64,000 bases of DNA from Deltaproteobacteria bacterium (GCA_006226565.1 SBGO01000716.1:307-64306), one strand, 5' to 3'; positions 13,079 through 64,000 are shown, counted from the stretch's first letter. Notes: generated by a model from the sequence alone, not told the origin. Numbers and translations are program-made.

Positions 13079-14455
13079 GTGACCACCGATCCTACCGGAT
13101 CCTCCGACGGCGATGCGGTGGCTGTGACCGTCGCGGCTGACGGTCGGCCGGTGGTGCGGTGCGCGATCTACACGCGGCAGTCCGTGGCCCATGGCAACGA
13201 GGACCTCACGTCCTGCGACGTTCAGCGGGAGCGGTGCGGCTACTACGTCAGCGCCATGAAGTACGAGGGCTGGGTCCTGCTCCCCGAGCGCTTCGATGAC
13301 CTCGGCGTCTCGGGCGCTACCCTCGAGCGGCCGGCCCTCGAACGCCTGCGTTCCCTCTGTGTACAAGGGCGGCTCGATGTCGTCGTCGTCACGCGGCTCG
13401 ACCGCCTGACGAGGCGCATGGCGGACTGGGCCCGCCTCTCGGACTGGTTCAAGCGGGCCGGTGTCGACCTGGTGATTGTCGACGGGAACGCGGGCGCCAG
13501 CGGACCGCTCGCCAGCCTCGTCAACAACGTCGTCGCCAGCTTCGCCGAGTTCGAGCGCGAGCTCGTCAGCGAGCGCCAACGCGACGCACGAGGGCGGGCC
13601 CGCGCCCGCGGTCTCCGCACGGCCGGTCGCGTCCCCCTCGGCTACGCGTCCGATCCCAACACGAAGCAGCTCGTCATCAACGAGCGCGAAGCACCCATCG
13701 TCCGCGAGTTCTTTGAGCGCTCCGCTGCTGGCGAGTCGGGCGCCCAGATCGCCGCGTGGGCGAACGCCGAAGGTCACCGGACCAAGGTCCACGCAGGCAA
13801 GGGCGGCGTCCTGTGGACGGGCAGGGCGGTCCTCCAGATCCTGCGAAACCCGCTCTACCTTGGCCGCCGTTCCCACCAGGCGGCCACCGTCAAGGGCGTC
13901 CATGACGCCATCGTCGACGCCAAGCTCGCTGAGCGAGCCCTTGACGCCATCGACGCCCGCCGGACACGCAGCCCGAGCTCGCGCGGGCGGGCGCCGAACC
14001 TTGACAACGACCCCTGGATGCTTCGCGGCATCCTCCGCTGCGGCGGCTGCGGCCGCCTCATGACGACCAGCGCGTCGGCCAGGGTCACCCTCGCGAACGC
14101 CGACGACGTCCCGCGCTACTACCGCTGTCGCGGTGAAGTCGGCCGGCCGGCCTGTCGTCCCGCCGTCCAGGTCGCCGCTCATCGTGTCGAAGGCCAGGTC
14201 ATCAGCCGGCTGTGCCTTCCCCAGTCCGTGTGGACCGACAACCCGAGGGCGCGCGCCTTCCTCCGGCTGCTCGCCCCCGAGTGGCCGCGGCTCGACACCG
14301 CCACGCGGAACCGCCTGGTCCGCCGCCTCCTGTGGACCATCACCTTGCACCCGCACAGGCGCTTTGCGAGCCTGACCGTGGACGAGCTCGGCGCCGACGC
14401 CCTCATCGAGGAGAACCCCGGCCTCGCCGCCGGGTTCCCACCTCGAGGCGTCTGA
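13079..14455 (+). CDS. Large serine recombinase (resolvase catalytic domain, recombinase domain and zinc-ribbon domain)
   Basis: Catalytic motif VRCAIYTRQS with DVQRERC, and a C-terminal Cys cluster LRCGGCGRL...YRCRGEVGRPAC. Confidence 0.85.
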   Translation: MTTDPTGSSDGDAVAVTVAADGRPVVRCAIYTRQSVAHGNEDLTSCDVQRERCGYYVSAMKYEGWVLLPERFDDLGVSGATLERPALERLRSLCVQGRLDVVVVTRLDRLTRRMADWARLSDWFKRAGVDLVIVDGNAGASGPLASLVNNVVASFAEFERELVSERQRDARGRARARGLRTAGRVPLGYASDPNTKQLVINEREAPIVREFFERSAAGESGAQIAAWANAEGHRTKVHAGKGGVLWTGRAVLQILRNPLYLGRRSHQAATVKGVHDAIVDAKLAERALDAIDARRTRSPSSRGRAPNLDNDPWMLRGILRCGGCGRLMTTSASARVTLANADDVPRYYRCRGEVGRPACRPAVQVAAHRVEGQVISRLCLPQSVWTDNPRARAFLRLLAPEWPRLDTATRNRLVRRLLWTITLHPHRRFASLTVDELGADALIEENPGLAAGFPPRGV

Positions 14456-14813
14456 GCCCGCGTCTCGGGACCGCACTGGTCGGTCTCAGAGCAGAGGTGG
14501 ATACTATTCGCGCCCCGGGAGCCCAAGACGGACCGCGACGGCGAGACGAAGAAAGCGAGGGCCGGATGTCCCGTTCTGAGCTTGCTAACCTTGTGCTCTG
14601 GGGCTGCTAAACGCCTCAGAGGCGTCTCCAAGCGTCTCTCGGGCCACGAGGGACCAGAGAACCCGGTCGACCGACCGGTCAGCGTCGGTCCGGTGCTCTG
14701 ACGCTCGGACCACCAAGATCCCACGCCGCGCCCAGCCACCAGCGCAACCTCGCGAACGAACACCAGAAACACGAAACCCCTCGCCAGCGACGCTGACGAG
14801 GGGCGTGTAAAGC

Positions 14814-14852
14814 GAAACGCCCAGGCATTGCTGCCTGGGCGTCTCGTGGCTC
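14814..14852 (+). repeat. 39-bp direct repeat, copy 2 (gaaacgcccaggcattgctgcCtgggcgtctcgtggctc)
   Basis: 38 of 39 identities with 9632..9670, same orientation. Confidence 0.8.
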
Positions 14853-15085
14853 CGCAAAGGCACGGCGTGACCAACGCCTCGACGCGAGGGCAGGGGACGG
14901 GTGCAACTCGGGGGCAGCAAGGAACATAGAACGACACAGTATCTCAAAGGGAGCGCCCGACGGGCTGCAGAATGGGAGCCCACCGTCACCATGTTAGGAG
15001 CGGTTTCCGGACACGCTGTCGTGCGCCATGACGCGGGCGTGTGATATCGCTACAAGGTGCGTCGATCACGCCTGCACGGGAGCTC

Positions 15086-18000
15086 ATGGTGTCGCGACCG
15101 ACCCTTGTCATCCAGACCGTCTACTTTCACCCGAGTGATCGCCCGCTGGCTCAGGACCTCGGGGGGCTGCTTTACGAGCACCTGACGCGACCACGTGCCG
15201 ATCGCCTGGCGTTCGGCGGTGGAATCCCGGTCCTCATCGCGACTGATACAACTCACGTCGACACGGACGTCGCCTCGCACCTGCTCATCGTGCCGGTCTT
15301 GGGCGCCAGTTCCTTCAGAGACGAGGACTGCCGGCAGGTCGCGAAAGCCAGCGTCCAGACCTGGCACCAGCACCTCGGTCCTGGCCACGTCGTCCCGGTA
15401 TTCGCCTCGGCGAACTGGCGCAGCGAGGAGTCCGAATTCCCCGGGAAGTCCGTGTTGACGCGCCTCTACTCCGATCAGGACGGGACCTGGACAAACACCC
15501 TGATCGAGGTCGTCCTCGCCGCCTGCCGCTTGCTCGCCGGCCCCGCGCTGTCGCTGAGGCTCTTCATCTCTCACGCGAAGCGGGACCTGGCGGGCACAGG
15601 TGACGTCGCGGCGTTGATTCGGGACTTCGCGAAGTCGGCGACGACGGGGCTTGCCTTCTTCGATACGACGGACCTCGAACCCGGTCACGACCTGGCCCAT
15701 CAGCTTGCGACCGCCACGCAATCGGGGGTCTTCGTAGCCATTCACAGCGACACGTACGCGGCCCGCTCGTGGTGCCAGCGCGAGCTCCAGTGGGCCAAGG
15801 AGAACGCGCTCCCAACCCTCACTGTCGAGGTTATGAAGGCTGGTGAGCCGCGCAGCTATCCGTATAGCGGCAACGGACCCACGCTCACCTGGAGGGACAG
15901 TCCGCCAACGGTCGTCCTCCAAGCATTCATCGAGTGGCTCAAAGCGGCGCACTTCAAGCAAGAGGCCGAGCGCATGGCGCACGACCTTCCCCAGCACGTC
16001 GTGCTCACGCGTCCGCCGGAGTTGTTCGATCTCGCGTTCGGGAAACTCCGATCCAAGGGGCCCCGCGTCGTCCTGCACCCCGATCCTGAGCTATCCGCCA
16101 ATGAGCGGCAGGTCCTGCGTGAGGCCCGACCACGCCTTCGCCTCGTGACACCTCGCACCCTGTTTCGCCGCTTGACCCCTAGCGACACCGTGGAGCCGCA
16201 GAAGCTCCCCCTCTACAGGAGGCAGATCGCCCTCTCGTTGTCCGACAGCCCCGCGGCCAACGGCGACGCCGGCTTCACGTCCGACCACATCGATGACGCG
16301 ATCACGTACCTGGCCCGAAGCATAGTCGCTGCAGGCGGTGCAATTGCGTACGGCGGCGACTTCCGCAGTAGCGGCTTCGACGAGCTGCTTGCCGAGCTTG
16401 TCGTCGCCTATAATGAGTCTGGCGTCGACCGTGCTGACTACCTTCATAGCTACCTCGCCGCGCTGATACCCTCCGACAAGATTCCCGAAGACCTTGCGCT
16501 CACCGACTGCTCTCTGAATTGGACGCCGAGATTCGCGAAGCTGGCGCGCCTGAGCTGGCCCGACGAGAAGCCGGGCGCCCATCGCAGCGCGCTCTACTTC
16601 TCCGACATGCGCCGCGTTATGGGCGAGGCCATCTTTGCCCGCGTCGCACTGGCCGGGCAGGACCGTCCGCGGAGTTCAAGGGAACCCGGCTACGGCGGAC
16701 CATTCCCGGGAGTGGTCGAGGAGGCGTGGCGAGCCCTGGAACAGCGGAAGCCGCTCTACGTGGTGGGGGGCTTCGGTGGCGCAGCCGCGCTCGTGGCCGA
16801 GCTGCTGACCTCGGACGAAACCCCACTGCTCATGCGGCGCGAGACCTTTGGGGGCGAAGAGTACTCGGAGTTCCAGGAGCGCTGTGACCTGGTTGTGGCG
16901 GATCCGGACACTGTGAGGCTCGGGCTCCCGCCGGACATGGCCGCACTGTCGGCAGCCGTGCGCGCGTTCGGCAAGGGGCACCTCGCGTCGGACGCCGCGT
17001 CGCTCGCTTGGAACGGCCTGACCGTCGTCGAAAACGAGGAGCTGTTTCGGACCCGCGATCCAGTGGCGATCACCCAGCTCGTCATGAAGGGGCTGCTCGC
17101 CTGCGTCGCGAAGGAAGATGCGGACAAGCTCAAGATCGAGCTAGTGTGTGGCAGCATCACCCAGGCAGAAGAGGCCGACGCCATCGCTATCGCGGCGTTC
17201 GACGACGTTCGCATCGGCGGAGCGGGCGCCTCCCTCGACGCGATGCTCTCCTACCTTGTCACCAGCGCCGTCGCGCAACGCGAGCAAATCGTCGACATCG
17301 AGAGCCCTGACATCGACGCCGAGTGGCTCGTCATCCCCGATCTTGGCAGCGTCGGGGCCGGCGATCTCTCCCCCATCCCTGAGGCCATCGAACGGGCCGC
17401 AGCTGGCGTTGCGAACATCGCGACCCGCCACCAGTTTCGTCGCATCGCAGTCGTCGCCTTCGGCGGGACCGTAGTCGACCTGAGCATTGCGGCGGAGCGC
17501 ATGATCCGCGGCTTTCGCGACCTCCACACCTCGACGGTCATCCAATGGTTCGAGCTCGATCCAGGCCGATTCGATGACCTCAGACAGATGTTGGAGAGCC
17601 AGGACAACGTCGCGCTGAGCACGCGTGTCCTGCCATCGCCACCGCTCGAAGAGACGGCCACGTCGCGTGATCGCGATCTGGTCGTGACGGTGCGTTACGA
17701 GGGCGGACACCTCCATACGACGCTGCTCCCACCTGCCGGAACGGCCGCCGCGGTCGCGTGCGTCCGGCCGCTGGCGATGGACGCCTTCGCCGACCTCGCG
17801 AAGTCCGACGCGCCCCGTGCGCCAACGCTCGGCCAGCTTGATGCAATCGGTGAGAAGCTCGCTGAAGCGCTCTTCGACGAGGCCGGGCACGACCTGTTCG
17901 GACGCGGCAGGCTGGACCGCGTCCTCGTTCAGCACGACCTCGACAGCGCGCCCCTTCCATTCGAGGCGCTCCGTGTTGCAGACCATCGCTTCGCCCTCGA

Positions 18001-18697
18001 GAAGGGCCTCGTGCGCCGCCCGGCACTAACGGGGTTGAGTCTTGGGGACATCACGCGGCTCCCGCAGCACAGCGGGAGCCTCAATGTTCTCCTCGTCGTG
18101 AACCCAACGGAGGACCTCGCCGCGACTGAAGTTGAGGGCGACGCCGTGAAGCGTGCCCTTCTGGCGATGGGCGAGAGCATCGTGAGGGTCACCGAGCTGC
18201 GCGGACCGGAGGCCACGAAGGAACGCGTATTGGCCGCGCTGACGGAGCCGACTCTCGACGTCCTCCACTACAGCGGCCACGCTTTCTACGACGGCCCAGG
18301 GCCGGACGGCAGCGGGCTCTGGTGCTCGAGCCCGACAGGCCCCACGAAGCTCCTACTGGTGGATATCGCCCAGGAGCGAATCACGCCACGCATCACGTTC
18401 TTCAATGGCTGCCAGTCCGCGCGCCTCAGAAATCGAACCGCTGCCGAATCCGCGCGGGCCTTCGCCGAGTTCTTCCTCCGAAGTGGCGTCGAAGCCTACA
18501 TCGGCACCACGTGGCCCGTCGCTGACGACGCCGCAGCCTCGTTCGCAACGTCGGTGTACGCCGAACTTGCGGGAGGCGCGACGCTCGACGCTGCGGTACG
18601 CTCCGCCCGTCAGCAACTAGCTGTGAACGGCGAGCCCGACTGGGCCAACTACGTTCTCTATGGAGATGGGAGCTTTCGCCTGGTGACGTCGCGGTGA
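15086..18697 (+). CDS. Multidomain TIR plus LOG/SLOG-like plus CHAT (caspase-like protease) protein; candidate Thoeris-type sensor-effector
   Basis: (a) TIR: LFISHAKRDLAGTGDVAALIRDF...SWCQRELQWA, preceded by a second TIR-like segment VIQTVYFHPSD. (b) LOG/SLOG Rossmann glycine motifs: IAYGGDFRSSGFDELLAELVVAY and LYVVGGFGGAAALVAELL, resembling LOG VFGGG...G and PGGxGTxEEL. (c) CHAT His-Cys dyad: LDVLHYSGHAFYD and ITFFNGCQSARL. Start chosen at ATG 15086, which has a GGGAG ribosome-binding site, rather than GTG 15041. Confidence 0.75.
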   Translation: MVSRPTLVIQTVYFHPSDRPLAQDLGGLLYEHLTRPRADRLAFGGGIPVLIATDTTHVDTDVASHLLIVPVLGASSFRDEDCRQVAKASVQTWHQHLGPGHVVPVFASANWRSEESEFPGKSVLTRLYSDQDGTWTNTLIEVVLAACRLLAGPALSLRLFISHAKRDLAGTGDVAALIRDFAKSATTGLAFFDTTDLEPGHDLAHQLATATQSGVFVAIHSDTYAARSWCQRELQWAKENALPTLTVEVMKAGEPRSYPYSGNGPTLTWRDSPPTVVLQAFIEWLKAAHFKQEAERMAHDLPQHVVLTRPPELFDLAFGKLRSKGPRVVLHPDPELSANERQVLREARPRLRLVTPRTLFRRLTPSDTVEPQKLPLYRRQIALSLSDSPAANGDAGFTSDHIDDAITYLARSIVAAGGAIAYGGDFRSSGFDELLAELVVAYNESGVDRADYLHSYLAALIPSDKIPEDLALTDCSLNWTPRFAKLARLSWPDEKPGAHRSALYFSDMRRVMGEAIFARVALAGQDRPRSSREPGYGGPFPGVVEEAWRALEQRKPLYVVGGFGGAAALVAELLTSDETPLLMRRETFGGEEYSEFQERCDLVVADPDTVRLGLPPDMAALSAAVRAFGKGHLASDAASLAWNGLTVVENEELFRTRDPVAITQLVMKGLLACVAKEDADKLKIELVCGSITQAEEADAIAIAAFDDVRIGGAGASLDAMLSYLVTSAVAQREQIVDIESPDIDAEWLVIPDLGSVGAGDLSPIPEAIERAAAGVANIATRHQFRRIAVVAFGGTVVDLSIAAERMIRGFRDLHTSTVIQWFELDPGRFDDLRQMLESQDNVALSTRVLPSPPLEETATSRDRDLVVTVRYEGGHLHTTLLPPAGTAAAVACVRPLAMDAFADLAKSDAPRAPTLGQLDAIGEKLAEALFDEAGHDLFGRGRLDRVLVQHDLDSAPLPFEALRVADHRFALEKGLVRRPALTGLSLGDITRLPQHSGSLNVLLVVNPTEDLAATEVEGDAVKRALLAMGESIVRVTELRGPEATKERVLAALTEPTLDVLHYSGHAFYDGPGPDGSGLWCSSPTGPTKLLLVDIAQERITPRITFFNGCQSARLRNRTAAESARAFAEFFLRSGVEAYIGTTWPVADDAAASFATSVYAELAGGATLDAAVRSARQQLAVNGEPDWANYVLYGDGSFRLVTSR

Positions 18698-18837
18698 TGT
18701 CTCGCCAAGGCGTCGGGACTCCGCGACAGGTGGAACCTCGCCGGCTGGCGCGTTGACATGCGTACAACAGCGCTGCAATCTCAGCCTGATGTCGCGCTCC
18801 GGATGCGCGATAGCTCGCGCACGGAAGGGGAAGTACA

Positions 18838-19425
18838 ATGACCACGCGCCACAAGGTGTTCATCAGCTACCATCACGCTCTGGACCAGCAGTACAAGAAC
18901 GACTTGGTCCGTTACTACGCCGACCGGGTGGACGGATTCGTCGATCGGTCCGTCGGGATCGGGGATATCGACGATTCCGTGTCCACAGAGCGCATCGCGC
19001 AACTGATTCGCGAGAAACACCTGAGGGACTCGACGGTGACCGTTGTGCTGATCGGGGCTGGAACGTGGAGACGCAAGCACGTCGATTGGGAGATTTACAG
19101 TAGCCTCCGCGCTACAAGTGCCAGTCCTCGAAGTGGTCTTCTCGGCATCTTGCTCCCTACGTATCAGATTCCATGGGGGGCGACTGGAACCCAACAGTGG
19201 ACCCAGCCTGCTACCGCCTACTACTGGCCGAACAACATCCCTCCGCGTCTCTGGGACAATGTGGCGACGGGCTTCGCAAAGGTGCGGCCGTGGCCTTCGT
19301 CCGGCCAGCAGCTGCAGGAGTGGATTCACGAGGCGTACCTGCGACGTGACGCCAACCCGGCGCCAACACTGGCCCGTGACCGATTCCGAAACAACCGGCC
19401 CGATGTGCAGAGCGGTTGGCAGTAG
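18838..19425 (+). CDS. thsB: ThsB-like TIR-domain protein (DUF1863-type), paralog 1
   Basis: HKVFISYHHALDQQYKND...STVTVVLIGAGTWRRKHVDWEI closely matches Bacillus cereus ThsB (RVFFSFHYQD...TSVTCVLIGSQTFNRRWVRYEI). Confidence 0.75.
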   Translation: MTTRHKVFISYHHALDQQYKNDLVRYYADRVDGFVDRSVGIGDIDDSVSTERIAQLIREKHLRDSTVTVVLIGAGTWRRKHVDWEIYSSLRATSASPRSGLLGILLPTYQIPWGATGTQQWTQPATAYYWPNNIPPRLWDNVATGFAKVRPWPSSGQQLQEWIHEAYLRRDANPAPTLARDRFRNNRPDVQSGWQ

Positions 19426-19448
19426 CCTCGACAAGTCGCAGGGCTGTC

Positions 19449-19991
19449 ATGACCTACCGGCACAAGGTCTTCATCAGCTACCACCACCAGAACGACGAGG
19501 CCTATCGCCACGAGTTCGAGGAGCGATTCGCCTACGAGGGCGGTGTCATTGTCCCGAAGGCGGTCTACGACGGCCAGATAGCCTCAGGATTGAGACCCGA
19601 GACGATTCGGCGAACGATTCGGGAGCGCAACCTGCGCGACAGCACAGTGACCGTCGTCTTGGTCGGTTCGGAGACTTGGAAGCGCAAGCACGTCGACTGG
19701 GAGATCGCGTCCAGTCTACGCAACACGCCGTATAAGAAGGCTTCCGGCCTCCTCGGAATCCTGCTCCCAAGCTACCCAGGGTCCGCCACTGACTACGACC
19801 CGCATACGATTCCGCCACGCCTCTGGGACAACGTCCTATGCGAATACGCGGAGGTTCACGACTGGACGAAGGGCCGATCAATCATGACGCACCTGATTCA
19901 CGCGGCGTTCCTTCGACGCAAACGCCTATTGCCGGCGAAACCCCGGCCCCGGTTCAAAATCAATCGACACGGCGAGCGATGGTGGCCGTGA
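19449..19991 (+). CDS. thsB: ThsB-like TIR-domain protein, paralog 2
   Basis: MTYRHKVFISYHHQNDEAYRHEF...STVTVVLVGSETWKRKHVDWEI. The start is taken at ATG 19449. Confidence 0.75.
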   Translation: MTYRHKVFISYHHQNDEAYRHEFEERFAYEGGVIVPKAVYDGQIASGLRPETIRRTIRERNLRDSTVTVVLVGSETWKRKHVDWEIASSLRNTPYKKASGLLGILLPSYPGSATDYDPHTIPPRLWDNVLCEYAEVHDWTKGRSIMTHLIHAAFLRRKRLLPAKPRPRFKINRHGERWWP

Positions 19992-34474: not shown

Positions 34475-37887
<3,413 letters not shown>

Positions 37888-56864: not shown

Positions 56865-57138
56865 AGGTTCGGCATAGGTTCGGCGCCAGGTTCGGCAGGT
56901 GAACTTCCATTGATATCGATGTGTTGTGGTGAGGTGCGGAACCTGCGGAACCTCCATGCCACCGATCGCACGGGGGAACTTCTTTTCTTTCGCCGCACGC
57001 ATACGCGAAAAAAAAGTACCTGCGGGGCGGGGGGGCCTGTTGGAGGTTCCGCAGGTTCGGCACGCGATCCAAACGCGTTGAAATTACAGCGAGATGGTGT
57101 GCGGGGCTTGGCTGGGAGGTTCCGCACAGGTTCGGCAC
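56865..57138. repeat. Iteron-like array: 9 copies of AGGTTC(G/C)GCA in both orientations
   Basis: Direct copies at 56865, 56876, 56888, 57044, 57053, 57118 and 57129, and inverted copies at 56935 and 56944. The array is flanked by unusual A/T runs (56830 to 56846 and 57004 to 57020). It lies between the primase 3' end and the methyltransferase 5' end. Confidence 0.7.
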
Positions 57139-57196
57139 GAACGTGCGAGGCGGCTCGCCGCCATCGCCAGGGCTCGGAGTCCAGCGGGACCACCGC

Positions 57197-60118
57197 CTAC
57201 GCGTCGTCGCCGTCACCGATGGGTTGCAGCGCGTAGATCGCACGGTTGTTGCGGTCCCGTGGCATCGCAGCGATGCGGAGAACGCCGTAGACTCGGTCAC
57301 GCGCGTCGTGGAGGGCCCTGCCAAGCCGGGTCTGCTGTGACCGCGATCCTCCCTCGCCTCGGACGCTGGCCATCATGTCGTTCGTCTCGCAGAGCGTGTT
57401 CAGGGATGACACCGTGACCGGCGTCGAGCCGTGGCTCTCCCACCAGGCGCTCGTGAACTGTCTCCACGCGTCGCCTTCGATGTCGGCGGTCGCGTACATA
57501 TCGTCGAGGTTGCCGAGGAAGCCATCGATGCCGCACACGTCGAGGAGGCCCGCCATCTGCACGGCCCACTCTTCGAATGAGCCGAGGTCCGCCGACGGCA
57601 GCCTCGGTCGCCCCGCCGCGATCCAGGCCTGGATGAGCGTCAACGCCGCGTGCACGAGCTCGCTTCGGTGTTCTTTCGCCCAGCCCGTGATGGGCTTGTG
57701 TTTGTAGGTGCGGCCCATCCATGGGCGATCGCGGGCGGCGTCGATCCGAATGGGGATCGAACGTCGCGCAACGTCGACCGCCAGGGACGGGTTGTTCCCG
57801 GTGAGCATCCACAGCGCGTGGTTCGGGTGGGTCAGCATCCGGGTCCGTCCGAGGAGCCGATCGGTCCACTTCGTGGTGGTGAGCACAGCGGCGAGCGACG
57901 GCGCGGCGATCCTCTTATGCTCACGAGCATTGTCGAGAAGGATGATCGGCTGCGCGCGACCGAGCTCTGAGGTGATCATCTTGCGGATCTCATCGTCCTC
58001 TGAGGGGAGGGTGCGAGCCGCGCAGATGGTCCCGGTGACGACGACGGAGACGAGGTTGCAGAGGAGCCCCTTGCCCGTCCCCGCGGTCGGAGACTCCACG
58101 ACGTAAAGCGGGGTCGGGCCATCGATCAGTCGTCGCATGAACGTCTGAAGCACCGCAGCGATGGCGTGGGCACGGTCAGCCTGGCTGACGAACGGGAAGT
58201 CCACGAACAAGTCGTCGACGAAGATGGCCTTGGCTGCGTCGATCTCCGCTGCCGAGGGCTTCTCAGACACCTCGGCCAACAACAGGGTGGGGTCCGTCTC
58301 AAGCCAGAGCTGGTCACTCGCATGCAGGCCTGGTGCCGAGAGAATCCCACCGGCGCGGCCAAACACGGGCGTCGTGAGCACGGTGTCGACAGTGGCGAGC
58401 CCGGCCGGTGGGTAGGCGAGTAGATCCTTCGAGACGTCCTTTGGTGGCGGGACGGCGCGTTCGCCATGCTGGTTCTGCTCGATCCAGTCGGCCTCTCTCG
58501 CCAGAACGCCGTGCATCGCGTCCTCTGTGACCGCGACGACGGTCGCGGCGCCATCGGTCGGCCGGTCGAGGCGGACGAGGGACCTGCCGTGAACGAAAAG
58601 GGGGGCGGCGACGTTCTCAAAGGGAGCGCTGGCGGCGGCGTCGATGCGGCGCGCGTTCGCTGCGGTCAGGACATCCCGGGTCTCGTTCAGGACCTCTCGC
58701 AGCTGCCGGTCGCCGACAACGATCTTGGGTCGTTGTCCCGGGGCGGATGGAGCAGGCGTCGCTTGCCCCCTTGATTGCCCCCTGACTGCCTTGAGGCTCG
58801 CGTTGAGGGCGCGCTTCTTGATTCCGAAGCGCTGCGTGATCGCGTCGAGCACAGCGCCTGTGCGAATCGCAGAGCAACGCTCGAGCGCAGCGAGGACCGG
58901 CGTGAGCTCGCTGTCGAGCTCGTGTGGTGGTGTGTCTTGCGGGATGGCGGCGAGGAGGTACTCGGGGTACGGCAGCGCGTTCGCCATGACCTCTTGGAGT
59001 GCCTCGGGGCTACCAGTCGCGACCAGCTCGTTGACGTCGATCTTCTCCCTGTCTTCGGGACGCGGAATTGTCGCGATGTAGATCTCTCGCCCGGCGTCCC
59101 AGAACGCCGCCGCAGTGGCCCTCGCACCGGCCTCCCCGGAGCCGTTCGCCTCGGAGTCGTTGCAGATGACGACCCGCCGCGCGCGCTGTGTGAGCTTCAG
59201 GAGGCGTGGCACGTCCTTGATCCGGAACTGGATCGTCACCGGTGAGATGCATCGGACACCGGCCTGGCGCGCGCTGATGCAGTCGGTGACGCCTTCCGTG
59301 ATGAGAACCTCGTCGGCCCCCCGTGCAGCATCCTCCTCGTAGAAGTACTCGTTCTGCACCGTGGGCGAGACGTAGCTGTGCTTCTCGGAGTGGGTGAGGA
59401 GCTTCTTGTACTTCGCCTGCTCCCACGACGCCTCCGACGTGCGCTCGGTCCGCCGCGCGATGAAGTAGACGACTCGCCCCCCGCGCCAGTAGGGAAACAC
59501 GAGCCGGCTCTGAAAGAGGTCCTTGATGCCGCTCCTCGTGACCACGAACAGGCCGGTCTTGAGCGCGGCCTCGCGACTCGCCCCGACGGTCGTCGTCAGG
59601 TGCTCGAAGAGGCGGCCGTCCGCCCAGCCGAGCTGCAGCTCGTCGACGGTCTCGTCGGTGAAGCCGTAGTGCTGGCGGTAGTGCGTCTCCCGGATCTCAG
59701 GCAGGAGCGCGCGGTGGTAGTACGCCGCCGCGGCGGTGTGCAGGCGCTCGACCTCGCGTCGCTCGGACAGCTGCTCGACCTCGCGCGCCCACGACTCATC
59801 GTCTTCGTTCAGCCGGCGGACCCCCGCGCGCTCAGCGAGGAGGTGCACCGCGTGCATGAAACCGACTCGCTCGCGCTGCTGGACGTAGTCGAAGACGTCG
59901 CCGCCAAGCCCGCCGCCCCGGGAGAAGTCGTGCCAGGTCCGGGTCTCGGGCCAGACGACGAACGATGGGGTCTTCTCAGGGTGAAAGGGCGAAAGGCCCT
60001 TGAGGGTCGAGCCCGACTCTCGCAAGTCAACATCTGCGCCGATGACCCCTACGATGTCCGAACGCTCACGCACGAGCTCCACGAAGTCCCTGAACTGCGT
60101 GTTGCCGAGCGCGCTCAT
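57197..60118 (-). CDS. Phage/plasmid-type DNA primase (Zn-binding-like N-terminus plus TOPRIM) fused to a C-terminal P-loop domain (DUF3987/D5-like)
   Basis: LKGLSPFHPEKTPSFVV is a CHC2-like primase N-terminus that lacks the Cys residues. TOPRIM motif VLITEGVTDCISARQAG...VVICNDSEANGSG. P-loop YVVESPTAGTGKGLL. Start at ATG 60118, in an ATGA overlap with the upstream small ORF. Confidence 0.7.
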   Translation of the reverse strand: MSALGNTQFRDFVELVRERSDIVGVIGADVDLRESGSTLKGLSPFHPEKTPSFVVWPETRTWHDFSRGGGLGGDVFDYVQQRERVGFMHAVHLLAERAGVRRLNEDDESWAREVEQLSERREVERLHTAAAAYYHRALLPEIRETHYRQHYGFTDETVDELQLGWADGRLFEHLTTTVGASREAALKTGLFVVTRSGIKDLFQSRLVFPYWRGGRVVYFIARRTERTSEASWEQAKYKKLLTHSEKHSYVSPTVQNEYFYEEDAARGADEVLITEGVTDCISARQAGVRCISPVTIQFRIKDVPRLLKLTQRARRVVICNDSEANGSGEAGARATAAAFWDAGREIYIATIPRPEDREKIDVNELVATGSPEALQEVMANALPYPEYLLAAIPQDTPPHELDSELTPVLAALERCSAIRTGAVLDAITQRFGIKKRALNASLKAVRGQSRGQATPAPSAPGQRPKIVVGDRQLREVLNETRDVLTAANARRIDAAASAPFENVAAPLFVHGRSLVRLDRPTDGAATVVAVTEDAMHGVLAREADWIEQNQHGERAVPPPKDVSKDLLAYPPAGLATVDTVLTTPVFGRAGGILSAPGLHASDQLWLETDPTLLLAEVSEKPSAAEIDAAKAIFVDDLFVDFPFVSQADRAHAIAAVLQTFMRRLIDGPTPLYVVESPTAGTGKGLLCNLVSVVVTGTICAARTLPSEDDEIRKMITSELGRAQPIILLDNAREHKRIAAPSLAAVLTTTKWTDRLLGRTRMLTHPNHALWMLTGNNPSLAVDVARRSIPIRIDAARDRPWMGRTYKHKPITGWAKEHRSELVHAALTLIQAWIAAGRPRLPSADLGSFEEWAVQMAGLLDVCGIDGFLGNLDDMYATADIEGDAWRQFTSAWWESHGSTPVTVSSLNTLCETNDMMASVRGEGGSRSQQTRLGRALHDARDRVYGVLRIAAMPRDRNNRAIYALQPIGDGDDA

Positions 60119-60360
60119 CCTGCGTCCTCGTACTGCGTCGCGAGGTCCAGGAGGGACACGATCGCGGGGTGCCGCTGTACTCCAGCCGCTGTCGCGAGGG
60201 GGACGCCTCGGGCTCGCCGGTATGCGCGCTCGAGCCCCGCAGCGACACGGCGGATGGTCTCGTCGTCGGTGCCCTGGACGGCGAAGACGCCGCCCAGCAC
60301 GAGGACGACCTCGCGGAACATCGACGCGAGAGGGTCTCGGGACATGGTAGGGTCGTTCAT
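60115..60360 (-). CDS. Hypothetical small protein
   Basis: Coding-like ORF translationally coupled to the primase gene. Confidence 0.3.
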   Translation of the reverse strand: MNDPTMSRDPLASMFREVVLVLGGVFAVQGTDDETIRRVAAGLERAYRRARGVPLATAAGVQRHPAIVSLLDLATQYEDAG

Positions 60361-60432
60361 GAGCGTGCTCCTCAGGGGTGTGCCCTCGTCTGGGGAGGAA
60401 ACGCGACCTCCAAGGGGCTGAGTGGGACACGT

Positions 60433-61167
60433 TCACGAGGTCCGCCGATACCGTTGCTGGACCTTCCGCTTGGCGCGCTGAAGACGCTTCCGGGCCGCCT
60501 CGTGGGAGACGCCCAGCCGCTCGGCCATGCTGCGCTGGCTCTCGTCATAGATGAGGCAGCCGATGACGAGGTCCGCGTCGTCACCGACCACGTCGGCGAG
60601 TCTCCCGCGGAGCGCCCGCACGTCCTCGTCGGGCTCGAGGCGAATGATGCCGGTCGTATCCTCGGTCGCGACCTCAATGTCAGGCATGTCGGCGCGACGC
60701 TTGTCCTCGTCCCACCGGCGTTTGAGGCCGTCACACAGGTCGCGGGAGACGTTGCGGACGAGCGTGGCGGCGACCCGGTTGACCCGCGTGAGGTCCATCC
60801 TGTGGACCGCTTCGAGGAAGCGGGTGCTGAGCTCGGAGACGAGGGCCTCGGGCTCGCCGGGGAAGTCTCGTCGGCGACGCCGGTGGATGGCGTCGAGTCC
60901 GGGCCAGAGCCCGAGCCAGAGCAGCGTGCGGGCTTGCTCAGCCCGAGGACGGTCGCGGCTCTGCGCCACCTCGATGAGGGAGGCGTAGATGGCGTCCTTC
61001 TCGTCGCGGTCGCCCGTCGGGTCGTTGAGGTACGTGACGAGCGCGGTCGCGCATTGGAACCGCGATAGGTGGTCGTGTCTCTGCAGCTCATCGAACCGCG
61101 ACTTGGATCTCGACGGATCGACCGAACGCTCGAGGCTCTCCTTCAGAGCCTCCCAGGAAGCGCGCAT
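60433..61167 (-). CDS. Sigma-70 family (ECF-like) RNA polymerase sigma factor
   Basis: C-terminal region 4 HTH SQRSMAERLGVSHEAARKRLQRAKRKV and a region-2-like segment. Confidence 0.55.
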   Translation of the reverse strand: MRASWEALKESLERSVDPSRSKSRFDELQRHDHLSRFQCATALVTYLNDPTGDRDEKDAIYASLIEVAQSRDRPRAEQARTLLWLGLWPGLDAIHRRRRRDFPGEPEALVSELSTRFLEAVHRMDLTRVNRVAATLVRNVSRDLCDGLKRRWDEDKRRADMPDIEVATEDTTGIIRLEPDEDVRALRGRLADVVGDDADLVIGCLIYDESQRSMAERLGVSHEAARKRLQRAKRKVQQRYRRTS

Positions 61168-61271
61168 GACTTTCCGGCCTTGGGGCCGGGCGTCATGCGC
61201 CTCTCAGGGGCCTCGTCAGGGCGTCTCGCGCCTCTGGTGAGTTGTGTGTCGGCGCCGATGGGGCGCCGCGC

Positions 61272-61514
61272 TCAGCTGCGGCGTGCGGGCTCCGCGGCGG
61301 GCGCCGGGTACTCGTTCAGCGTCTGGCAGAAGCGACACCGGGTCGTCGCCGGCAGCCCGACGATGTACTCGTGGCCGCGCGCGAACCGGACGTGGAGTCG
61401 GCTGCCGCGCTTGCGAGCGAGCAGCGCGTGGCAGCGCGTGCAGCGCCACGGGGCTTCGTCCGCTCGGACCTTGTTGATGCGGACGCTCGGTGGAGCCTGT
61501 GGGATCCTTCTCAT
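61272..61514 (-). CDS. Small zinc-ribbon protein (CxxC...CxxC), Com/Ogr-like
   Basis: CTRCHALL...CRFC pairs. It sits in a phage-like regulatory position. Confidence 0.45.
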   Translation of the reverse strand: MRRIPQAPPSVRINKVRADEAPWRCTRCHALLARKRGSRLHVRFARGHEYIVGLPATTRCRFCQTLNEYPAPAAEPARRS

Positions 61515-61604
61515 GGGGCCTCCAAGCCGCCATGGAAGGCGGCGTTGTTAACTACCCCCGCAGCATCCGCACGGGTGGGACCCCACGAAATTCCTCATCG
61601 AGCA

Positions 61605-61679
61605 CCGGTGACTAGTCACCGCTGTGTGGTGAGTAGTCTGGCAGCGAAGCTGGTCGGGACAACAATGCTGTAATTACAG
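61605..61679. promoter_or_regulatory. Two perfect palindromes in the intergenic region: CGGTGACTAGTCACCG (61605..61620) and GCTGTAATTACAGC (61666..61679)
   Basis: Exact palindromes of 16 bp and 14 bp upstream of the Zn-ribbon/sigma/primase leftward operon. Confidence 0.35.
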
Positions 61680-61789
61680 CGCATTGCAATGATGGGCGTG
61701 ACGGCGTTCGAGTTCTGTTCACCTGACACGGGTACATCGCTACGCACCAGCGAGCGGTCCCGTAGGACGCGTTCAGGATGCCCCCAGGA

Positions 61790-62656
61790 TCAGAACCGCT
61801 TCGGCGCGCGGTACTCCTTGAGCTTCGCCAGCGCGGCGTCCGAGAGCGGGCCAGGCTCCCATGCCATGAGCGGCCACGGTCCCGGCGCCGGCAGCAAGTG
61901 GATTCGCTCAGGAGGCAGCAAGGGCTGCTTCGTGTGTCGCTGTCTGAACTCAAGCATGAAGCGCTGCCAGTTGGCTGCCGCGGAAAGAAAGGTGAACAGT
62001 CGGATGGGACTCAGTGGACCCGGTCCCGGCAGCGCCTGCAATCGAGCCTGCATGGCGGCGAAGATGTCCGCATGGAGCATGTAGCTGAGCGTGGCCGCCA
62101 GGTGAGCGACCGGCGCATGCGAACTCCACGCCTTTCGAATGTCCTTTTCGTTCTTGTGCAGGTCGCTGTGGGACTTGGCGAGCCACTCGACGAGGTGCAC
62201 AGCCTTGTTGACGCTCGCCTCTCCTCGGTCGGCGTGGTGCAACGCCATCCGCCGGATCATGTCCAGGATCGTGCCAGCGGTGGCCCAGTCGCGGGACCGC
62301 TTTTCCGCGAACGCGAGCATCGTTGGCAAGCTGTCCGCGAAGGCCACAGCGACGGGGCCTCCATGGGCCTCAAACCGTGCCTGAGCCGATGCACGAGCCT
62401 CTGCTAGCTCCTCACGGAGGCGCTCGGCTGCGGCTCTGTCACCGTTCGCCTCGAGCTTCGCAAGAACGGAGGCGACGATCTCTGCCGAGAAGTCCAAATC
62501 TCGGTGGAGGGCGCGAACGTCCAATGCAGCTTGCGCCGCCAAGAAGGCGTGGCGTGTCACGTCGTCATCTGGCCACGTCAAGTAGGCGCCGATGATGTTG
62601 CCGGCCGCTGAACGGCCAGTGTCTGTGGTGAGGTCGCCGAGTTCGATTGCCGCCAT
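61790..62656 (-). CDS. Hypothetical protein
   Basis: Coding-like 288-aa ORF. No motif recognised. Confidence 0.4.
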   Translation of the reverse strand: MAAIELGDLTTDTGRSAAGNIIGAYLTWPDDDVTRHAFLAAQAALDVRALHRDLDFSAEIVASVLAKLEANGDRAAAERLREELAEARASAQARFEAHGGPVAVAFADSLPTMLAFAEKRSRDWATAGTILDMIRRMALHHADRGEASVNKAVHLVEWLAKSHSDLHKNEKDIRKAWSSHAPVAHLAATLSYMLHADIFAAMQARLQALPGPGPLSPIRLFTFLSAAANWQRFMLEFRQRHTKQPLLPPERIHLLPAPGPWPLMAWEPGPLSDAALAKLKEYRAPKRF

Positions 62657-63137
62657 GGTGTCCGTCCGTCCTTGATGCTGCAGTCGGATGTACCGTAGCG
62701 CGTCGCCATCGTTCAGGCAGTAGCCGGGAAACGCTCTTGTTTTTTCGCGCGACGGCGCGCTGTCCCATTCTCGGGCCCGGCCCTGCGTTTCCTCGGCAGT
62801 TCGTCAACGCCGGAGGATGGCATGGTCCCGATTCAACCTGGGCAGCAGAGCTCGAACGGTCCTTCGCCACGAAACCCCGATTCCGTCCGCTCCGCCCGCG
62901 ACGAAGTCGCCGACGTCCTCGCCGAGGCCCTCTGGAGCTTGATCTGCAGCCGCCGCGGTCTCGAAGGGCAGGGCGGAAGCCGCCGGAAGACCCGGACGAC
63001 CACGACGCGCCACGTCTCGGCCTCACCGCAACCTGTTGAAACACATGCGCTCTGAGACTTGCCTCCGCGCGGAGACGACGCGTCCATGCGCCCACGACGA
63101 GGCGCACGGTGCGCCCCGGGACACCAGGGAGCACCCC

Positions 63138-63683
63138 ATGACAGGGAAGCAGAGCGAGGGCGCGAAGACGCGCCGCGAGATCGCCGACCTCACGCAGCAG
63201 CTGGCGGCGCTGCGCGAGATGACCGTGAACGAGCTCCGTGAGAAGTACCGCGACGTCTTCGGTGAGCCGAGCCGCTCGCGCAACAAGGACTACCTCCGGA
63301 AGAAGGTGGGCTGGCGGATCCAGGAGCTGGCCGAGGGGGGACTCTCCGACCGCGCCAGCAGCAAGATCGAAGCGCTCACGGCGGACGAGCCGCTGCGGTG
63401 GAGGAAGCGGCGCCGCCTGACCGAGCCCACCGCCCACGCCACCGCATCCGACGCGACCGCAGCTACGACGCGTGATCCCCGCCTCCCGGAGCCCGGTACC
63501 GTCCTCACACGCGAGCACGACGGCGTCGAGCACACCGTCACCGTCCTCGACGGCGGCTTCGAGTACGAGGGGCAGCGCTTCAAGAGCCTCTCGAAGGTCG
63601 CCCGCGTCATTACAGGCACGAACTGGAATGGGTTCCTGTTCTTCGGCCTCAAGCGCCGGACGCCGGGCGGGGGCACCACGTGA
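63138..63683 (+). CDS. DUF2924-family protein (the usual partner of large serine recombinases)
   Basis: [32 protein letters not shown] and the C-terminal ...[21 protein letters not shown] match DUF2924 conserved regions. The start is taken at ATG 63138. Confidence 0.7.
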
Positions 63684-64000
63684 GGGGCTTCGGCACAGCG
63701 CTCACGCAGCCGAAGCGGTGCGCGATCTACACGCGCAAGTCGACCGCGATCGGCCTCGAGCAGGAGTTCAACACGCTCGATGCCCAACGGGAGGCGTGCC
63801 TGGCGTACATCCAGCGCCAGGAGCACTGGACGACGACGGACGTCCGCTACGACGACGGTGGCTTCACCGGAGCCAACATCGAGCGGCCCGCCTTCCAGCG
63901 GTTGCTCGAGGACATCGACGCGGGGAAGGTCGACATCGTGGTGGTCTACAAGGTCGACCGCCTCTCCCGCTCGCTCCTCGACTTCGCCCGTGTGATGGAC
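63680..64000 (+). CDS. Large serine recombinase, N-terminal catalytic domain (3' end outside the window)
   Basis: [10 protein letters not shown]...LDAQREAC...[20 protein letters not shown] resolvase motifs. The GTG start overlaps the DUF2924 stop as GTGA. Confidence 0.8.

What the first reader, a model, noticed from the sequence alone, without database searches (positions are those of the whole stretch)
13079..64000. Two large serine recombinases in the same orientation about 50 kb apart bracket both defence loci
The recombinase genes at 13079..14455 and at 63680 onward are both on the plus strand. Between them lie the Thoeris-like locus, the DISARM-like operon, Myxo-type kinase/FGE genes and the phage-like module. 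Only the right-hand recombinase has a DUF2924 partner. The arrangement is compatible with a composite genomic island, or a hotspot where independent elements have accumulated. Recombinase-mediated deletion or inversion between the two could mobilise or remove the defence cargo as a unit.
Basis: inference. Interest (0 to 1): 0.5.

Follow-up and report, generated by a model that had tools for sequence, protein, structure and literature searches.

The report
Two recombinase elements stacked at tRNA-Asn
The two serine recombinase genes are real, but rather than bracketing one island each appears to sit at the end of its own mobile element, and the two elements are stacked head-to-tail next to a tRNA-Asn gene just beyond the window, a known way for defence islands to build up that is unusual here because serine rather than tyrosine recombinases are involved.

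Summary
Observation confirmed. LSR-1 (13079-14455, 458 aa) and LSR-2 (63680 onward, cut by the window end; 533 aa on the overlapping contig L002) are both intact, plus-strand large serine recombinases. Only LSR-2 has a DUF2924 partner. The Thoeris-like, DISARM-like, kinase/FGE and phage-like loci lie between them.

Interpretation partly supported. The genes themselves are not recombination partners: 40% protein identity, and no DNA match better than 69% over 181 nt.

The relevant features are three direct copies of an att-like sequence, a hairpin followed by GTGGCTC(CG):
- DRa, 9632-9670.
- DRb, 14814-14854, at the end of a ~290-nt repeat that follows every LSR-1-family gene examined.
- DRc, 3.6 kb beyond the window, where the core forms the last 8 nt of tRNA-Asn(GTT), next to core gene RNase J.

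They delimit two stacked elements:
- E1, 5.2 kb: AbiE toxin-antitoxin, two unknown genes, LSR-1.
- E2, 52.8 kb: both defence loci, kinase/FGE genes, a capsid-less phage module, LSR-2.

Best explanation (confidence 0.6): tandem accretion at tRNA-Asn by two distantly related recombinases sharing a target. Excision of the cargo between direct repeats is plausible but untested; inversion is not expected.

Unusual points: serine recombinases at a tRNA 3' end, and an LSR-1 family without the coiled-coil motif. Whether E2 is one element is unresolved.

The parts
9632..9670 (+). DRa: the leftmost att-like copy (hairpin + GTGGCTC), forming the left junction of element E1.
   Evidence: It is 38/39 identical to 14814-14852 (blastn E 4e-10). 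It lies in the AhpC/AbiEii intergenic region. The junction 'GCTC | AAATAGCATCTGCCTT' is conserved in five loci (alignment A2).
9671..9760 (+). Left arm of E1 (putative P' arm).
   Evidence: The motif wwwTAGyATCTGCCTT directly after the core is shared with L226, L224, L085 and L084.
9960..11497 (-). AbiEii toxin (9960-10916) and a weakly AbiEi_4-like antitoxin candidate (10913-11497), carried as E1 cargo.
   Evidence: Pfam AbiEii E 2e-19; AbiEi_4 E 0.004, below the curated cut-off. Homologues at 67-76% lie next to LSR-1-like genes in L084 and L226. L304 has an AbiEii gene plus a 196-aa gene in the same position.
11590..12892 (-). Two genes of unknown function (278 aa and 147 aa) in E1.
   Evidence: No Pfam or PHROG hit. 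GC3 0.86-0.87.
13079..14455 (+). LSR-1: a large serine recombinase of a short family that lacks the coiled-coil motif.
   Evidence: Three LSR domains. The conserved YTRxS and DRLxR motifs are kept (alignment A5). Listed homologues are mostly ~400-465 aa. The family has an 86-98-residue gap where the LSR-2 family carries a coiled-coil-like stretch.
14564..14854 (+). rep1: a ~290-nt conserved non-coding repeat that ends in DRb (14814-14854) and the core GTGGCTCCG (14846-14854). It is the right junction of E1 and the left junction of E2.
   Evidence: nhmmer E 2e-19 against a profile of relatives' repeats. Positions 14659-14854 align with the 3' flank of tRNA-Asn: Smith-Waterman score 36 against shuffles of 12 +/- 1.6. 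It folds into two strong hairpins. No Rfam family matches.
15041..19991 (+). E2 cargo: a Thoeris-like locus (TIR-SLOG-CHAT protein plus two ThsB-like TIR proteins).
   Evidence: Pfam and PADLOC hits. Lowest GC3 in the island, 0.74-0.80.
20165..37887 (-). E2 cargo: a DISARM-like operon (unknown 204-aa gene, DruE/DrmA-like helicase with a DUF1998/MZB domain, AlbA_2-HATPase, GmrSD, DrmMI, DrmD).
   Evidence: Pfam and PADLOC: DrmD 5e-108, DrmMI 9e-85, DruE 2e-114, HEC-05 4e-66.
38155..49135 (+). E2 interior: a Ser/Thr kinase, a TPR-PEGA protein, an unknown gene and three FGE-sulfatase paralogues. Whether these are cargo or trapped host genes is unresolved.
   Evidence: Pfam. GC3 0.77-0.87 against 0.91-0.97 in the core flanks. 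No att-like copy was found on either side.
49188..62656 (-). E2: a defective phage module (unknown 484-aa gene, RNase_T exonuclease, GGACT, RHH, TerL, TerS, ParB-methylase, primase, sigma-like regulator).
   Evidence: Pfam and PHROGs. In the closest TerL relative, L086 (66% identity), TerL is followed by adaptor, portal and protease-capsid genes. No trace of these genes exists here.
63138..63683 (+). DUF2924 gene, the partner of LSR-2.
   Evidence: Pfam E 5e-47. Found upstream of LSR-2-like genes in dozens of loci.
63680..64000 (+). LSR-2 (cut by the window end; full gene is L002 5887-7488 on the minus strand, 533 aa). Beyond the window, in L002 coordinates: phrog_14161 gene (5417-5890), two unknown genes (4055-5383), rep2/DRc (about 3519-3718), tRNA-Asn(GTT) (3451-3526), RNase J (1623-3302).
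   Evidence: The closest relatives, L242 (69%) and L243 (64%), also lie beside a tRNA-Asn(GTT) gene.

Best explanation
The 58 kb from 9671 to the tRNA-Asn(GTT) gene about 3.6 kb beyond the window is a tandem array of two integrative elements. They were probably inserted one after the other at the same site, the 3' end of tRNA-Asn.

**How each element is built.** Each carries its own large serine recombinase near its tRNA-proximal (right) end. Behind the recombinase is its own copy of a sequence that mimics the tRNA's two-hairpin 3' flank and ends in the shared core GTGGCTC(CG).

**How the array forms (inferred).** Integration by crossover in that core restores the tRNA's last bases and its terminator. 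It also regenerates a target site, so further elements can stack up.

**The two elements.**
- E1 (9671-14854, 5.2 kb) is a small cassette: AbiE toxin-antitoxin, two unknown genes and LSR-1.
- E2 (14855 to the tRNA, 52.8 kb) holds both defence loci, the kinase/FGE genes, a phage module with terminase and primase but no capsid genes, and DUF2924-LSR-2.

**Consequences (inferred).** Because DRa, DRb and DRc are direct repeats, either recombinase could in principle excise E1, E2 or both together.

**What is shown and what is inferred.** Shown: the genes, the three repeats, the sharp conserved junctions, the tRNA, and the recurrence of these features in relatives. Inferred: that the recombinases act on these sites, the order of insertion, that E2 is one unit, and any present-day mobility.
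For: 1. **Three direct att-like copies.** DRa and DRb are 38/39 identical (E 4e-10). rep1 aligns with the tRNA-Asn 3' flank over about 200 nt (Smith-Waterman score 36 against shuffles of 12 +/- 1.6), and the homology stops exactly at GTGGCTCCG, the last 8 nt of the tRNA.

2. **A tRNA at the island's edge.** tRNA-Asn(GTT) points its 3' end at the island and is followed by the core genes RNase J, GTPase and GNAT. This synteny is kept in a distant Myxococcales MAG, L003.

3. **Foreign composition.** GC3 is 0.91-0.97 in the formate-dehydrogenase-like and RNase J flanks, and 0.74-0.95, mostly below 0.91, from 4.1 to 67.1 kb.

4. **The repeat travels with LSR-1.** A ~290-nt repeat follows the LSR-1-like gene in all eight loci examined. 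In five relatives a second copy lies upstream, so the recombinase and a toxin-antitoxin pair form a 3.6-5.3-kb cassette.

5. **Conserved junctions.** The junction nucleotides are the same across loci: 'GCTC|wwwTAGyATCTGCCTT' on the left, and 'GCTC(C)|variable' on the right.

6. **Independent copies, not a duplication.** Flanking repeats within one locus are no more alike (77-88%) than repeats from different loci.

7. **LSR-2 relatives share the target.** The closest relatives (L242 69%, L243 64%) sit beside tRNA-Asn(GTT). In the nine loci of the wider clade where a tRNA lies within about 6 kb of the recombinase gene, its 3' end faces that gene in every case. The two tRNAs of L311 also face it.

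8. **No rival recombinase.** No tyrosine recombinase or transposase was found by Pfam in the called genes of the island.

9. **Precedent.** Tandems whose integrases are distantly related but share specificity are a described outcome of accretion (PMC5704250).
Against: - No empty site or excised circle was observed. The host has no close relative in the collections searched: the best RNase J match is 44-46%, and exact-protein look-ups return only sample SRR8389942.
- E2 is compositionally mosaic (GC3 0.74-0.95). It lacks capsid genes and contains host-like kinase/FGE genes, so it may be several elements whose internal att copies have decayed.
- None of the seven LSR-1-like relatives has a tRNA within the sequence held, up to 10 kb on each side. 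E1-type cassettes may therefore target the repeat rather than the tRNA itself.
- LSR-2 relatives at 57-60% identity show no tRNA within 4-10 kb.
- L242 has the LSR module in the opposite orientation relative to the tRNA.
- Serine integrases typically use 5-8-bp cores inside ORFs (PMC8092301), so long homologous arms at a tRNA are atypical for this enzyme class.
- The assembly from SRR8389942 reads straight through DRa and DRb (L001 is identical to window 7262-24455). This gives no sign of a mixed population.
Confidence: 0.6

Rival explanations
1. A single 58-kb element (DRa to tRNA-Asn) carries two serine recombinases, one near each end. DRb would then be an internal relic or regulatory sequence. 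The recombinases would work together, as in elements that encode two or three serine recombinases.
For: Both genes are intact and on the same strand. Relative L226 has two serine recombinase genes side by side, an LSR-1-like gene and a convergent 700-aa gene. No tRNA is ever found directly after an LSR-1 cassette in relatives. This fits LSR-1 lying at the distal end of large islands.
Against: The LSR-1 cassette occurs on its own, bounded by its own pair of repeats, in five other loci with unrelated neighbours: metal resistance, other defence genes, a phage-like block. LSR-2-type modules occur in dozens of loci without an LSR-1-like gene. DRa and DRb are 38/39 identical and have the same junction as the cassettes in relatives.
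Confidence: 0.12
2. The array is a fossil. Both elements are immobile remnants, and the repeats are decaying scars. The two recombinases have no present functional link to each other or to the defence cargo, which accumulated by other routes such as homologous exchange in a defence-island hotspot.
For: The phage module lacks all capsid and tail genes. E2 is a patchwork of GC3 blocks. rep1 and the tRNA-flank copy are only about 62% alike. Only 39 nt of the upstream repeat survive at DRa. The assembly shows no variant junctions.
Against: Both recombinase ORFs are full length, with the conserved motifs and normal family length. DRa and DRb differ at only one position in 39. The tRNA and its core are intact.
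Confidence: 0.2
3. The repeats are not recombination sites. They would be a conserved 3' UTR, terminator or small RNA that travels with the recombinase gene. Their resemblance to the tRNA-Asn flank would be convergence between terminators, and the two recombinases would be unrelated insertions at unknown sites.
For: The repeat (~290 nt) is far longer than known serine-integrase att sites. It folds into strong hairpins, and some hairpin pairs change on both sides while staying paired. Serine integrases normally need only short cores (PMC8092301).
Against: Homology to the tRNA flank runs about 200 nt and stops precisely inside the tRNA's last 8 nt. The left junction falls at the same nucleotide in five loci and is followed by a conserved element-specific arm. 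Copies bracket discrete gene modules. No Rfam family matches.
Confidence: 0.08

Closest known systems
Tandem accretion of integrative elements at one att site (ICE/IME/CIME tandems, for example ICESt1/ICESt3-related elements; reviewed in PMC5704250)
   Same: There are three or more direct att copies delimiting adjacent elements. The integrases are distantly related but appear to share a target. One partner is decayed. Joint or separate excision is possible.
   Different: The recombinases here are large serine recombinases, not tyrosine integrases. There are no conjugation or mobilisation genes. The repeated arms are long (39 to ~290 nt) and diverged.
tRNA-gene genomic islands and prophages (Islander-type tDNA islands, PMC4383910; tRNA-Asn hotspot in Sinorhizobium meliloti, PMC11476347)
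   Same: Insertion is at the 3' end of a tRNA gene. The element restores the tRNA end. The displaced copy marks the far border. The integrase gene lies near the tRNA-proximal end.
   Different: Those islands use tyrosine integrases. Here only 6-8 nt of the tRNA are shared, and the repeat mainly covers the tRNA's downstream terminator region.
Phage serine integrases (Bxb1, phiC31, A118, TP901-1; Wolbachia WO prophage LSR with a DUF2924 neighbour, PMC11376236)
   Same: LSR-2 has the full domain set and matches the A118 and phiC31 integrase chains. It has a DUF2924 neighbour, as in WO prophages. It sits at the end of a phage-derived element, and its relatives lie in 32-63-kb predicted proviruses.
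   Different: Known serine integrases mostly insert inside ORFs with 5-8-bp common cores (PMC8092301). Here the target is the end of a tRNA. The LSR-1 family lacks the coiled-coil motif.
phiRv1 integrase targeting the repeated element REP13E12 in Mycobacterium tuberculosis (from my own knowledge, not checked here)
   Same: A serine integrase whose attB lies in a repeated non-coding element, so several alternative sites exist.
   Different: Here the repeated element travels with the recombinase cassette itself and mimics a tRNA flank.

Membership tests
Large serine recombinase (LSR / serine integrase) | N-terminal resolvase catalytic domain with the serine nucleophile motif. | tested here: met
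   PF00239: LSR-1 E 2e-31; LSR-2 E 5e-40 for the full protein. YTRxS and DRLxR are invariant in alignment A5.
Large serine recombinase (LSR / serine integrase) | Recombinase domain (PF07508) plus zinc-ribbon domain (PF13408). | tested here: met
   Both proteins hit both domains above the curated cut-offs.
Large serine recombinase (LSR / serine integrase) | Coiled-coil motif emerging from the zinc-ribbon domain, which controls synapsis and direction in characterised integrases. | tested here: not met
   This row refers to LSR-1. The whole LSR-1 family has an 86-98-residue gap where LSR-2 and its relatives carry a heptad-like stretch (alignment A5). LSR-2 has a coiled-coil-type hit at residues 381-445. 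No structure was predicted.
Large serine recombinase (LSR / serine integrase) | Catalyses attP x attB recombination at a 2-bp crossover. | not testable with these tools
   Sites were only inferred from repeats and junctions.
tRNA-linked genomic island, tandem (accreted) array | Located at the 3' end of an intact tRNA gene next to conserved core genes. | tested here: met
   tRNA-Asn(GTT) at L002 3451-3526 has its 3' end facing the island. RNase J, GTPase and GNAT lie beyond it, and this synteny is kept in L003.
tRNA-linked genomic island, tandem (accreted) array | Direct repeats containing the tRNA end at the borders, with three or more copies delimiting sub-elements. | tested here: met
   DRa, DRb and DRc are all on the plus strand.
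tRNA-linked genomic island, tandem (accreted) array | Tyrosine integrase as the agent. | tested here: not met
   No Phage_integrase-type domain in any called gene. The only recombinases found are the two serine recombinases.
tRNA-linked genomic island, tandem (accreted) array | Presence or absence polymorphism, or excision products. | tested here: inconclusive
   No close relative of the host could be retrieved. The one assembly available reads through DRa and DRb.
Intact temperate prophage | Packaging genes plus portal, capsid and tail genes. | tested here: not met
   TerS and TerL are present. The adaptor, portal and protease-capsid genes that follow TerL in relative L086 are absent with no remnants.
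Unit bracketed by two homologous recombinase genes (deletion or inversion between the genes) | Long, near-identical DNA at the two genes to allow homologous recombination. | tested here: not met
   The best DNA match between the two genes is 69% over 181 nt, and no shared repeat family joins them.

The most novel reading that the evidence does not exclude
The LSR-1 family would be a distinct class of coiled-coil-less large serine recombinases that build cassette arrays. Each unit would be a few genes, often a toxin-antitoxin pair, followed by a ~290-nt structured repeat that mimics the terminator and last bases of tRNA-Asn. Units would insert one behind another at the repeat's end, loosely like integron cassettes but with a serine recombinase carried in a cassette. 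The long repeat, with its CTCTGG/CCAGAG inverted motifs, would supply accessory sites that replace the missing coiled-coil control. A further possibility is that the 52.8-kb E2, which keeps terminase, primase and integrase but has no capsid genes, is a defence-carrying satellite packaged by a helper phage.
Probability: 0.12. Interest if true: 0.8.

Novelty: new variant of a known kind. Interest (0 to 1): 0.5.

Why it matters
- **How defence islands form.** The locus gives a concrete, testable anatomy for how a large defence island is assembled and could move: stacking of elements at one tRNA site, with exact predicted junction sequences.
- **Serine recombinases at tRNA genes.** The agents here appear to be serine recombinases, whereas islands in tRNA genes are normally attributed to tyrosine integrases. 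In nine related loci a tRNA 3' end faces the recombinase gene, which suggests a clade of tRNA-targeting serine integrases. Such enzymes with defined natural sites are of interest as genome-engineering tools.
- **Control of directionality.** The coiled-coil-less LSR-1 family, with its long conserved flanking repeat, raises the question of how directionality is controlled without that motif.

Tried and rejected
- **Comparative genomics for an empty site.** It yielded only the conserved tRNA-Asn/RNase J synteny in L003. Exact-protein look-ups for DUF2924 with two different starts found nothing. Other look-ups returned only the same sample.
- **Long repeats within the window.** The search found only the FGE paralogues and noise, and nothing linking the two recombinase genes. 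The att-like copies emerged only after a profile was built from relatives.
- **An inversion model.** I considered that 13-49 kb had been inverted, because a GGACT-unk81-RNaseT block lies just upstream of LSR-1-like genes in L224 and L226. I dropped this because the same block accompanies an LSR-2-like module in L244 in the window's orientation. It is a shared phage module.
- **More att copies inside E2.** I searched the intergenic regions at 37.9-38.2 kb, 49.1-49.2 kb and others. No convincing copy was found.
- **Rfam.** No family matched the window or the relatives.
- **RNA structure of the repeat.** Only the two 3' hairpins are convincing; the long-range pairs break in divergent copies.
- **Conservation of the E2 ends in relatives.** None was found.
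- **A second viral scan with DUF2924.** It added only distant loci.
- **Dyad symmetry.** I looked by eye for dyad symmetry around the inferred crossover. Nothing was clear, and I make no claim about it.

Full report
**1. Observation**

The window is about 68% G+C. I called genes by third-position GC bias and annotated them with Pfam, PADLOC and PHROGs.

LSR-1 (13079-14455, +, 458 aa) carries the Resolvase, Recombinase and Zn_ribbon_recom domains. From 63680 (+) the window holds the first 106 residues of a second resolvase-domain protein. Its start overlaps the stop of a DUF2924 gene at 63138-63683.

An exact-protein look-up found the same organism in the Logan assembly of run SRR8389942:
- Contig L001 is identical to window 7262-24455.
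- Contig L002 overlaps window 50433-64000 without a mismatch and extends 7.2 kb further.

On L002, LSR-2 is complete: 533 aa with all three domains. The listed content of the interval is confirmed.

**2. The two genes are not partners as genes**

The proteins are 40% identical over 362 residues (E 4e-69). The best DNA match between the genes is 69% over 181 nt. A repeat search found nothing that links them. Homologous recombination between the two genes therefore has no substrate.

They also differ in architecture. An alignment of LSR-1 and three relatives with LSR-2 and two relatives shows an 86-98-residue gap in the whole LSR-1 family. The gap falls exactly where the LSR-2 family has a heptad-rich stretch after the zinc ribbon. 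LSR-2 gives a coiled-coil-type hit there.

The best 120 LSR-1 homologues are mostly about 400-465 aa and come largely from Myxococcota MAGs. The short form is thus a family trait, not decay. A 100% identical NCBI protein comes from a 79.8-kb contig labelled 'MAG: Deltaproteobacteria bacterium'.

**3. Extent of the foreign region**

GC3 is 0.91-0.97 in the formate-dehydrogenase-like genes at 2-4056 and in the RNase J, GTPase and GNAT genes beyond the window. It is 0.74-0.95, mostly below 0.91, for everything from 4.1 kb to 67.1 kb in extended coordinates. LSR-1 therefore lies inside the atypical region and not at its edge.

Beyond LSR-2 the order on L002 is:
- a conserved 157-aa gene (phrog_14161);
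- two unknown genes;
- a 750-nt gap that contains tRNA-Asn(GTT) on the minus strand (L002 3451-3526, extended coordinates 67642-67717);
- RNase J.

The tRNA's 3' end faces the island. A distant Myxococcales MAG (L003) keeps the order tRNA-Asn(-), RNase J, GTPase, GNAT.

**4. A repeat that travels with LSR-1**

I fetched eight loci that encode LSR-1 relatives of 57-67% identity: L084, L085, L224-L227, L304 and L305. Seven have enough flanking sequence to examine.

Cross-comparison showed a ~290-nt non-coding sequence present several times. A profile built from it finds one copy downstream of the recombinase gene in every locus, including the window at 14564-14840 (E 2e-19).

A second copy lies upstream in L226, L224, L084, L085 and L305. 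In these loci the recombinase and a toxin-antitoxin pair (AbiE or HTH/PIN) form a 3.6-5.3-kb cassette between direct repeats.

Flanking copies within one locus are 77-88% identical, no more than copies from different loci. They are therefore independent family members and not fresh duplications. Rfam has no match.

**5. Three att-like copies in this locus**

- *rep1 and the tRNA flank.* A permissive profile search of the extended sequence found a second, partial copy at 67542-67616, just downstream of tRNA-Asn (E 6e-4). Direct alignment shows that rep1 (14659-14854) and the tRNA's 3' flank (67450-67649) are homologous over about 200 nt. The Smith-Waterman score is 36, against 12.0 +/- 1.6 (maximum 19) for 500 shuffles. 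The homology ends at GTGGCTCCG, whose last 8 nt are the 3' end of the tRNA.
- *A third copy.* Positions 9632-9670, in the AhpC/AbiEii spacer, are 38/39 identical to 14814-14852 (E 4e-10).
- *Orientation and shape.* All three copies are on the plus strand. Both rep1's 3' end and the tRNA flank fold into two strong hairpins (z -5.8 and -7.7). The repeat thus mimics the tRNA's terminator region.
- *Junctions.* They are conserved to the nucleotide. On the left, the hairpin and GCTC are followed by wwwTAGyATCTGCCTT in the window, L226, L224, L085 and L084. On the right, GCTC(C) is followed by unrelated sequence in each locus, or by the tRNA body.

**6. Reading**

The copies delimit two elements:
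- E1 = 9671-14854 (5,184 bp): AbiEii, an AbiEi-like gene, two unknown genes, LSR-1 and rep1.
- E2 = 14855-67641 (52,787 bp): the Thoeris-like locus, the DISARM-like operon, the kinase/FGE genes, the phage module, DUF2924, LSR-2, phrog_14161, two unknown genes and rep2.

Each recombinase reads towards the tRNA and is followed by its own repeat and core. Pfam found no tyrosine recombinase or transposase in any called gene.

This anatomy matches tandem accretion as described for integrative elements. That description includes the remark that tandem partners often have distantly related integrases with similar specificity (PMC5704250).

**7. Does LSR-2 use tRNA-Asn?**

- LSR-2 relatives of 57-64% identity lie in IMG/VR predicted proviruses of 32-63 kb. 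There the DUF2924-LSR-phrog_14161 module sits at one end.
- The relatives L242 (69%) and L243 (64%) each have a tRNA-Asn(GTT) gene nearby. Both tRNAs share the terminal TGGCTCCG and a two-hairpin flank.
- Across the wider clade, tRNA genes lie beside the recombinase gene in L240 (Asn); L228, L237, L250, L256 and L285 (Gln); and L265 (Met).
- In all nine cases the tRNA's 3' end faces the recombinase gene. If orientation were random, nine of nine would have a probability of about 0.002.
- More distant LSR-2 relatives (57-60%) show no tRNA within 4-10 kb, so the association is lineage-specific.

**8. State of E2**

The closest TerL relative (L086, 66% identity, same methylase-TerS-TerL order) continues with adaptor, portal and protease-capsid genes. 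Here TerL is followed by small genes, an RHH protein, GGACT, an exonuclease and an unknown 484-aa protein. No remnant of the portal or capsid genes exists anywhere in the extended sequence.

E2 is also a patchwork in composition. No further att copy was found inside it. E2 may be one degraded, cargo-laden phage-derived element. It may equally be several fused elements. This is the weakest point of the model.

**9. Caveats on E1**

No LSR-1-like relative has a tRNA in the sequence held, up to 10 kb on each side. E1-type cassettes may therefore insert at a resident repeat, for example the distal junction of an island already at the tRNA, rather than at the tRNA itself. The order of insertion of E1 and E2 cannot be decided.

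Outside the cassettes, relatives carry metal-resistance or other defence genes.

**10. Comparison with what is known**

Islands in tRNA genes are attributed to tyrosine integrases (PMC4383910). In Mycobacterium abscessus, serine integrases have 5-8-bp cores and insert inside ORFs, whereas tyrosine systems use tRNA genes with 25-76-bp cores (PMC8092301). IMEs that encode serine recombinases are flanked by very short repeats (PMC5704250).

Here the perfect core shared by DRb and DRc is 9 bp, which fits a serine enzyme. The location at the end of a tRNA and the long homologous arms do not fit the usual picture.

A DUF2924 gene beside a large serine recombinase is already noted in Wolbachia WO prophages (PMC11376236).

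**11. Verdict**

The 'composite island / hotspot' reading is supported in substance, but the geometry and the mechanism need correcting:
- The units are defined by att-like repeats and a tRNA outside the window, not by the recombinase genes.
- LSR-1 belongs to a neighbouring mini-element, not to the defence cargo.
- Excision is the expected reaction, not inversion.

Mobility is untested. I rate this a new variant of a known kind, of moderate interest.

Noticed in passing
window 14564-14854; also L226 3062-3308, 8341-8631, 12013-12303; L305 3672-3959, 9010-9298: The ~290-nt repeat contains several CTCTGG / CCAGAG(AGCAC) motifs in inverted pairs, about 13 nt apart. These could be protein-binding sites or RNA stems. 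Only the two 3' hairpins are clearly kept as structure, with changes on both sides of some pairs. No Rfam family matches.
   Followed up: partly
window 15041-19991: The 'Thoeris-like' locus has two ThsB-type TIR proteins. In place of a canonical ThsA there is a 1,200-aa TIR-SLOG-CHAT protein, that is, a caspase-like protease joined to a nucleotide-sensor domain. PADLOC gave no ThsA hit. This may be a Thoeris variant with a protease effector.
   Followed up: no
window 20165-37887: The DISARM-like operon has DrmD and DrmMI. A GmrSD (HEC-05) gene and an AlbA_2/HATPase gene are inserted, and an 1,889-aa helicase with a DUF1998/MZB domain scores best against Druantia DruE models. No PLD-type DrmC was detected.
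   Followed up: no
window 41400-49135 and 41000-41118: There are three tandem paralogues of 840-870 aa with a P_proprotein domain and a C-terminal FGE-sulfatase domain. Each has several 81-nt (27-aa) repeats (…ATSGDYADLTNRPDLSGYALT…). The preceding gene holds a 24-nt tandem repeat. These repeats probably cause the contig breaks in the short-read assembly.
   Followed up: no
window 50704-51826; L224 698-1907; L226 3710-4338; L244 3601-4106: A GGACT / 81-aa / RNase_T exonuclease block (65-84% protein identity for GGACT and the exonuclease; 52-83% for the 81-aa gene) recurs next to both LSR-1-like and LSR-2-like genes in unrelated contigs. It looks like a module exchanged among these elements.
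   Followed up: partly
L226 12292-14394 (-); L225 about 5257-6840 (-): In two relatives a 700-aa serine recombinase gene lies convergent with, and directly after, the LSR-1-like gene and its repeat. This makes a pair of serine recombinases at one junction.
   Followed up: no
L228, L237, L240, L250, L256, L265, L285: Serine recombinases 34-41% identical to LSR-2 lie 0.3-2 kb from a tRNA-Gln, tRNA-Met or tRNA-Asn gene. In every case the tRNA's 3' end faces the recombinase. This hints at a clade of tRNA-targeting serine integrases.
   Followed up: partly
window 56913-57084: A 44-nt imperfect inverted repeat (75% complementary, 84-nt spacer) lies in the 645-nt gap between the ParB-methylase and primase genes. 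It may be an origin or an operator of the phage module.
   Followed up: no
window 4440-9587: Left of DRa lies a bpMoxR AAA ATPase plus a vWA protein (a pair assigned by Pfam to MoxR-vWA ternary systems), followed by HxlR, a flavodoxin-like protein and AhpC. Their GC3 of 0.74-0.86 is also below the core level, so an older island may lie here. No att-like copy was found.
   Followed up: partly
L003 707-1312 and 4747-4822: In the distant Myxococcales MAG that keeps the tRNA-Asn/RNase J synteny, a DruE/DrmA-like helicase fragment (36% identity) lies 3.4 kb from the tRNA's 3' end. tRNA-Asn may be a defence-island site there too. The contig ends 4.7 kb from the tRNA.
   Followed up: no
L304 1-8123; L305 35-3038; L085 5347-7634: Next to LSR-1-like cassettes in relatives lie metal-resistance genes: RND efflux and P-type ATPase; MerR/MerT and cation efflux; ArsR/ACR3/ArsC. 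The cassettes thus accompany varied cargo, not only defence genes.
   Followed up: no
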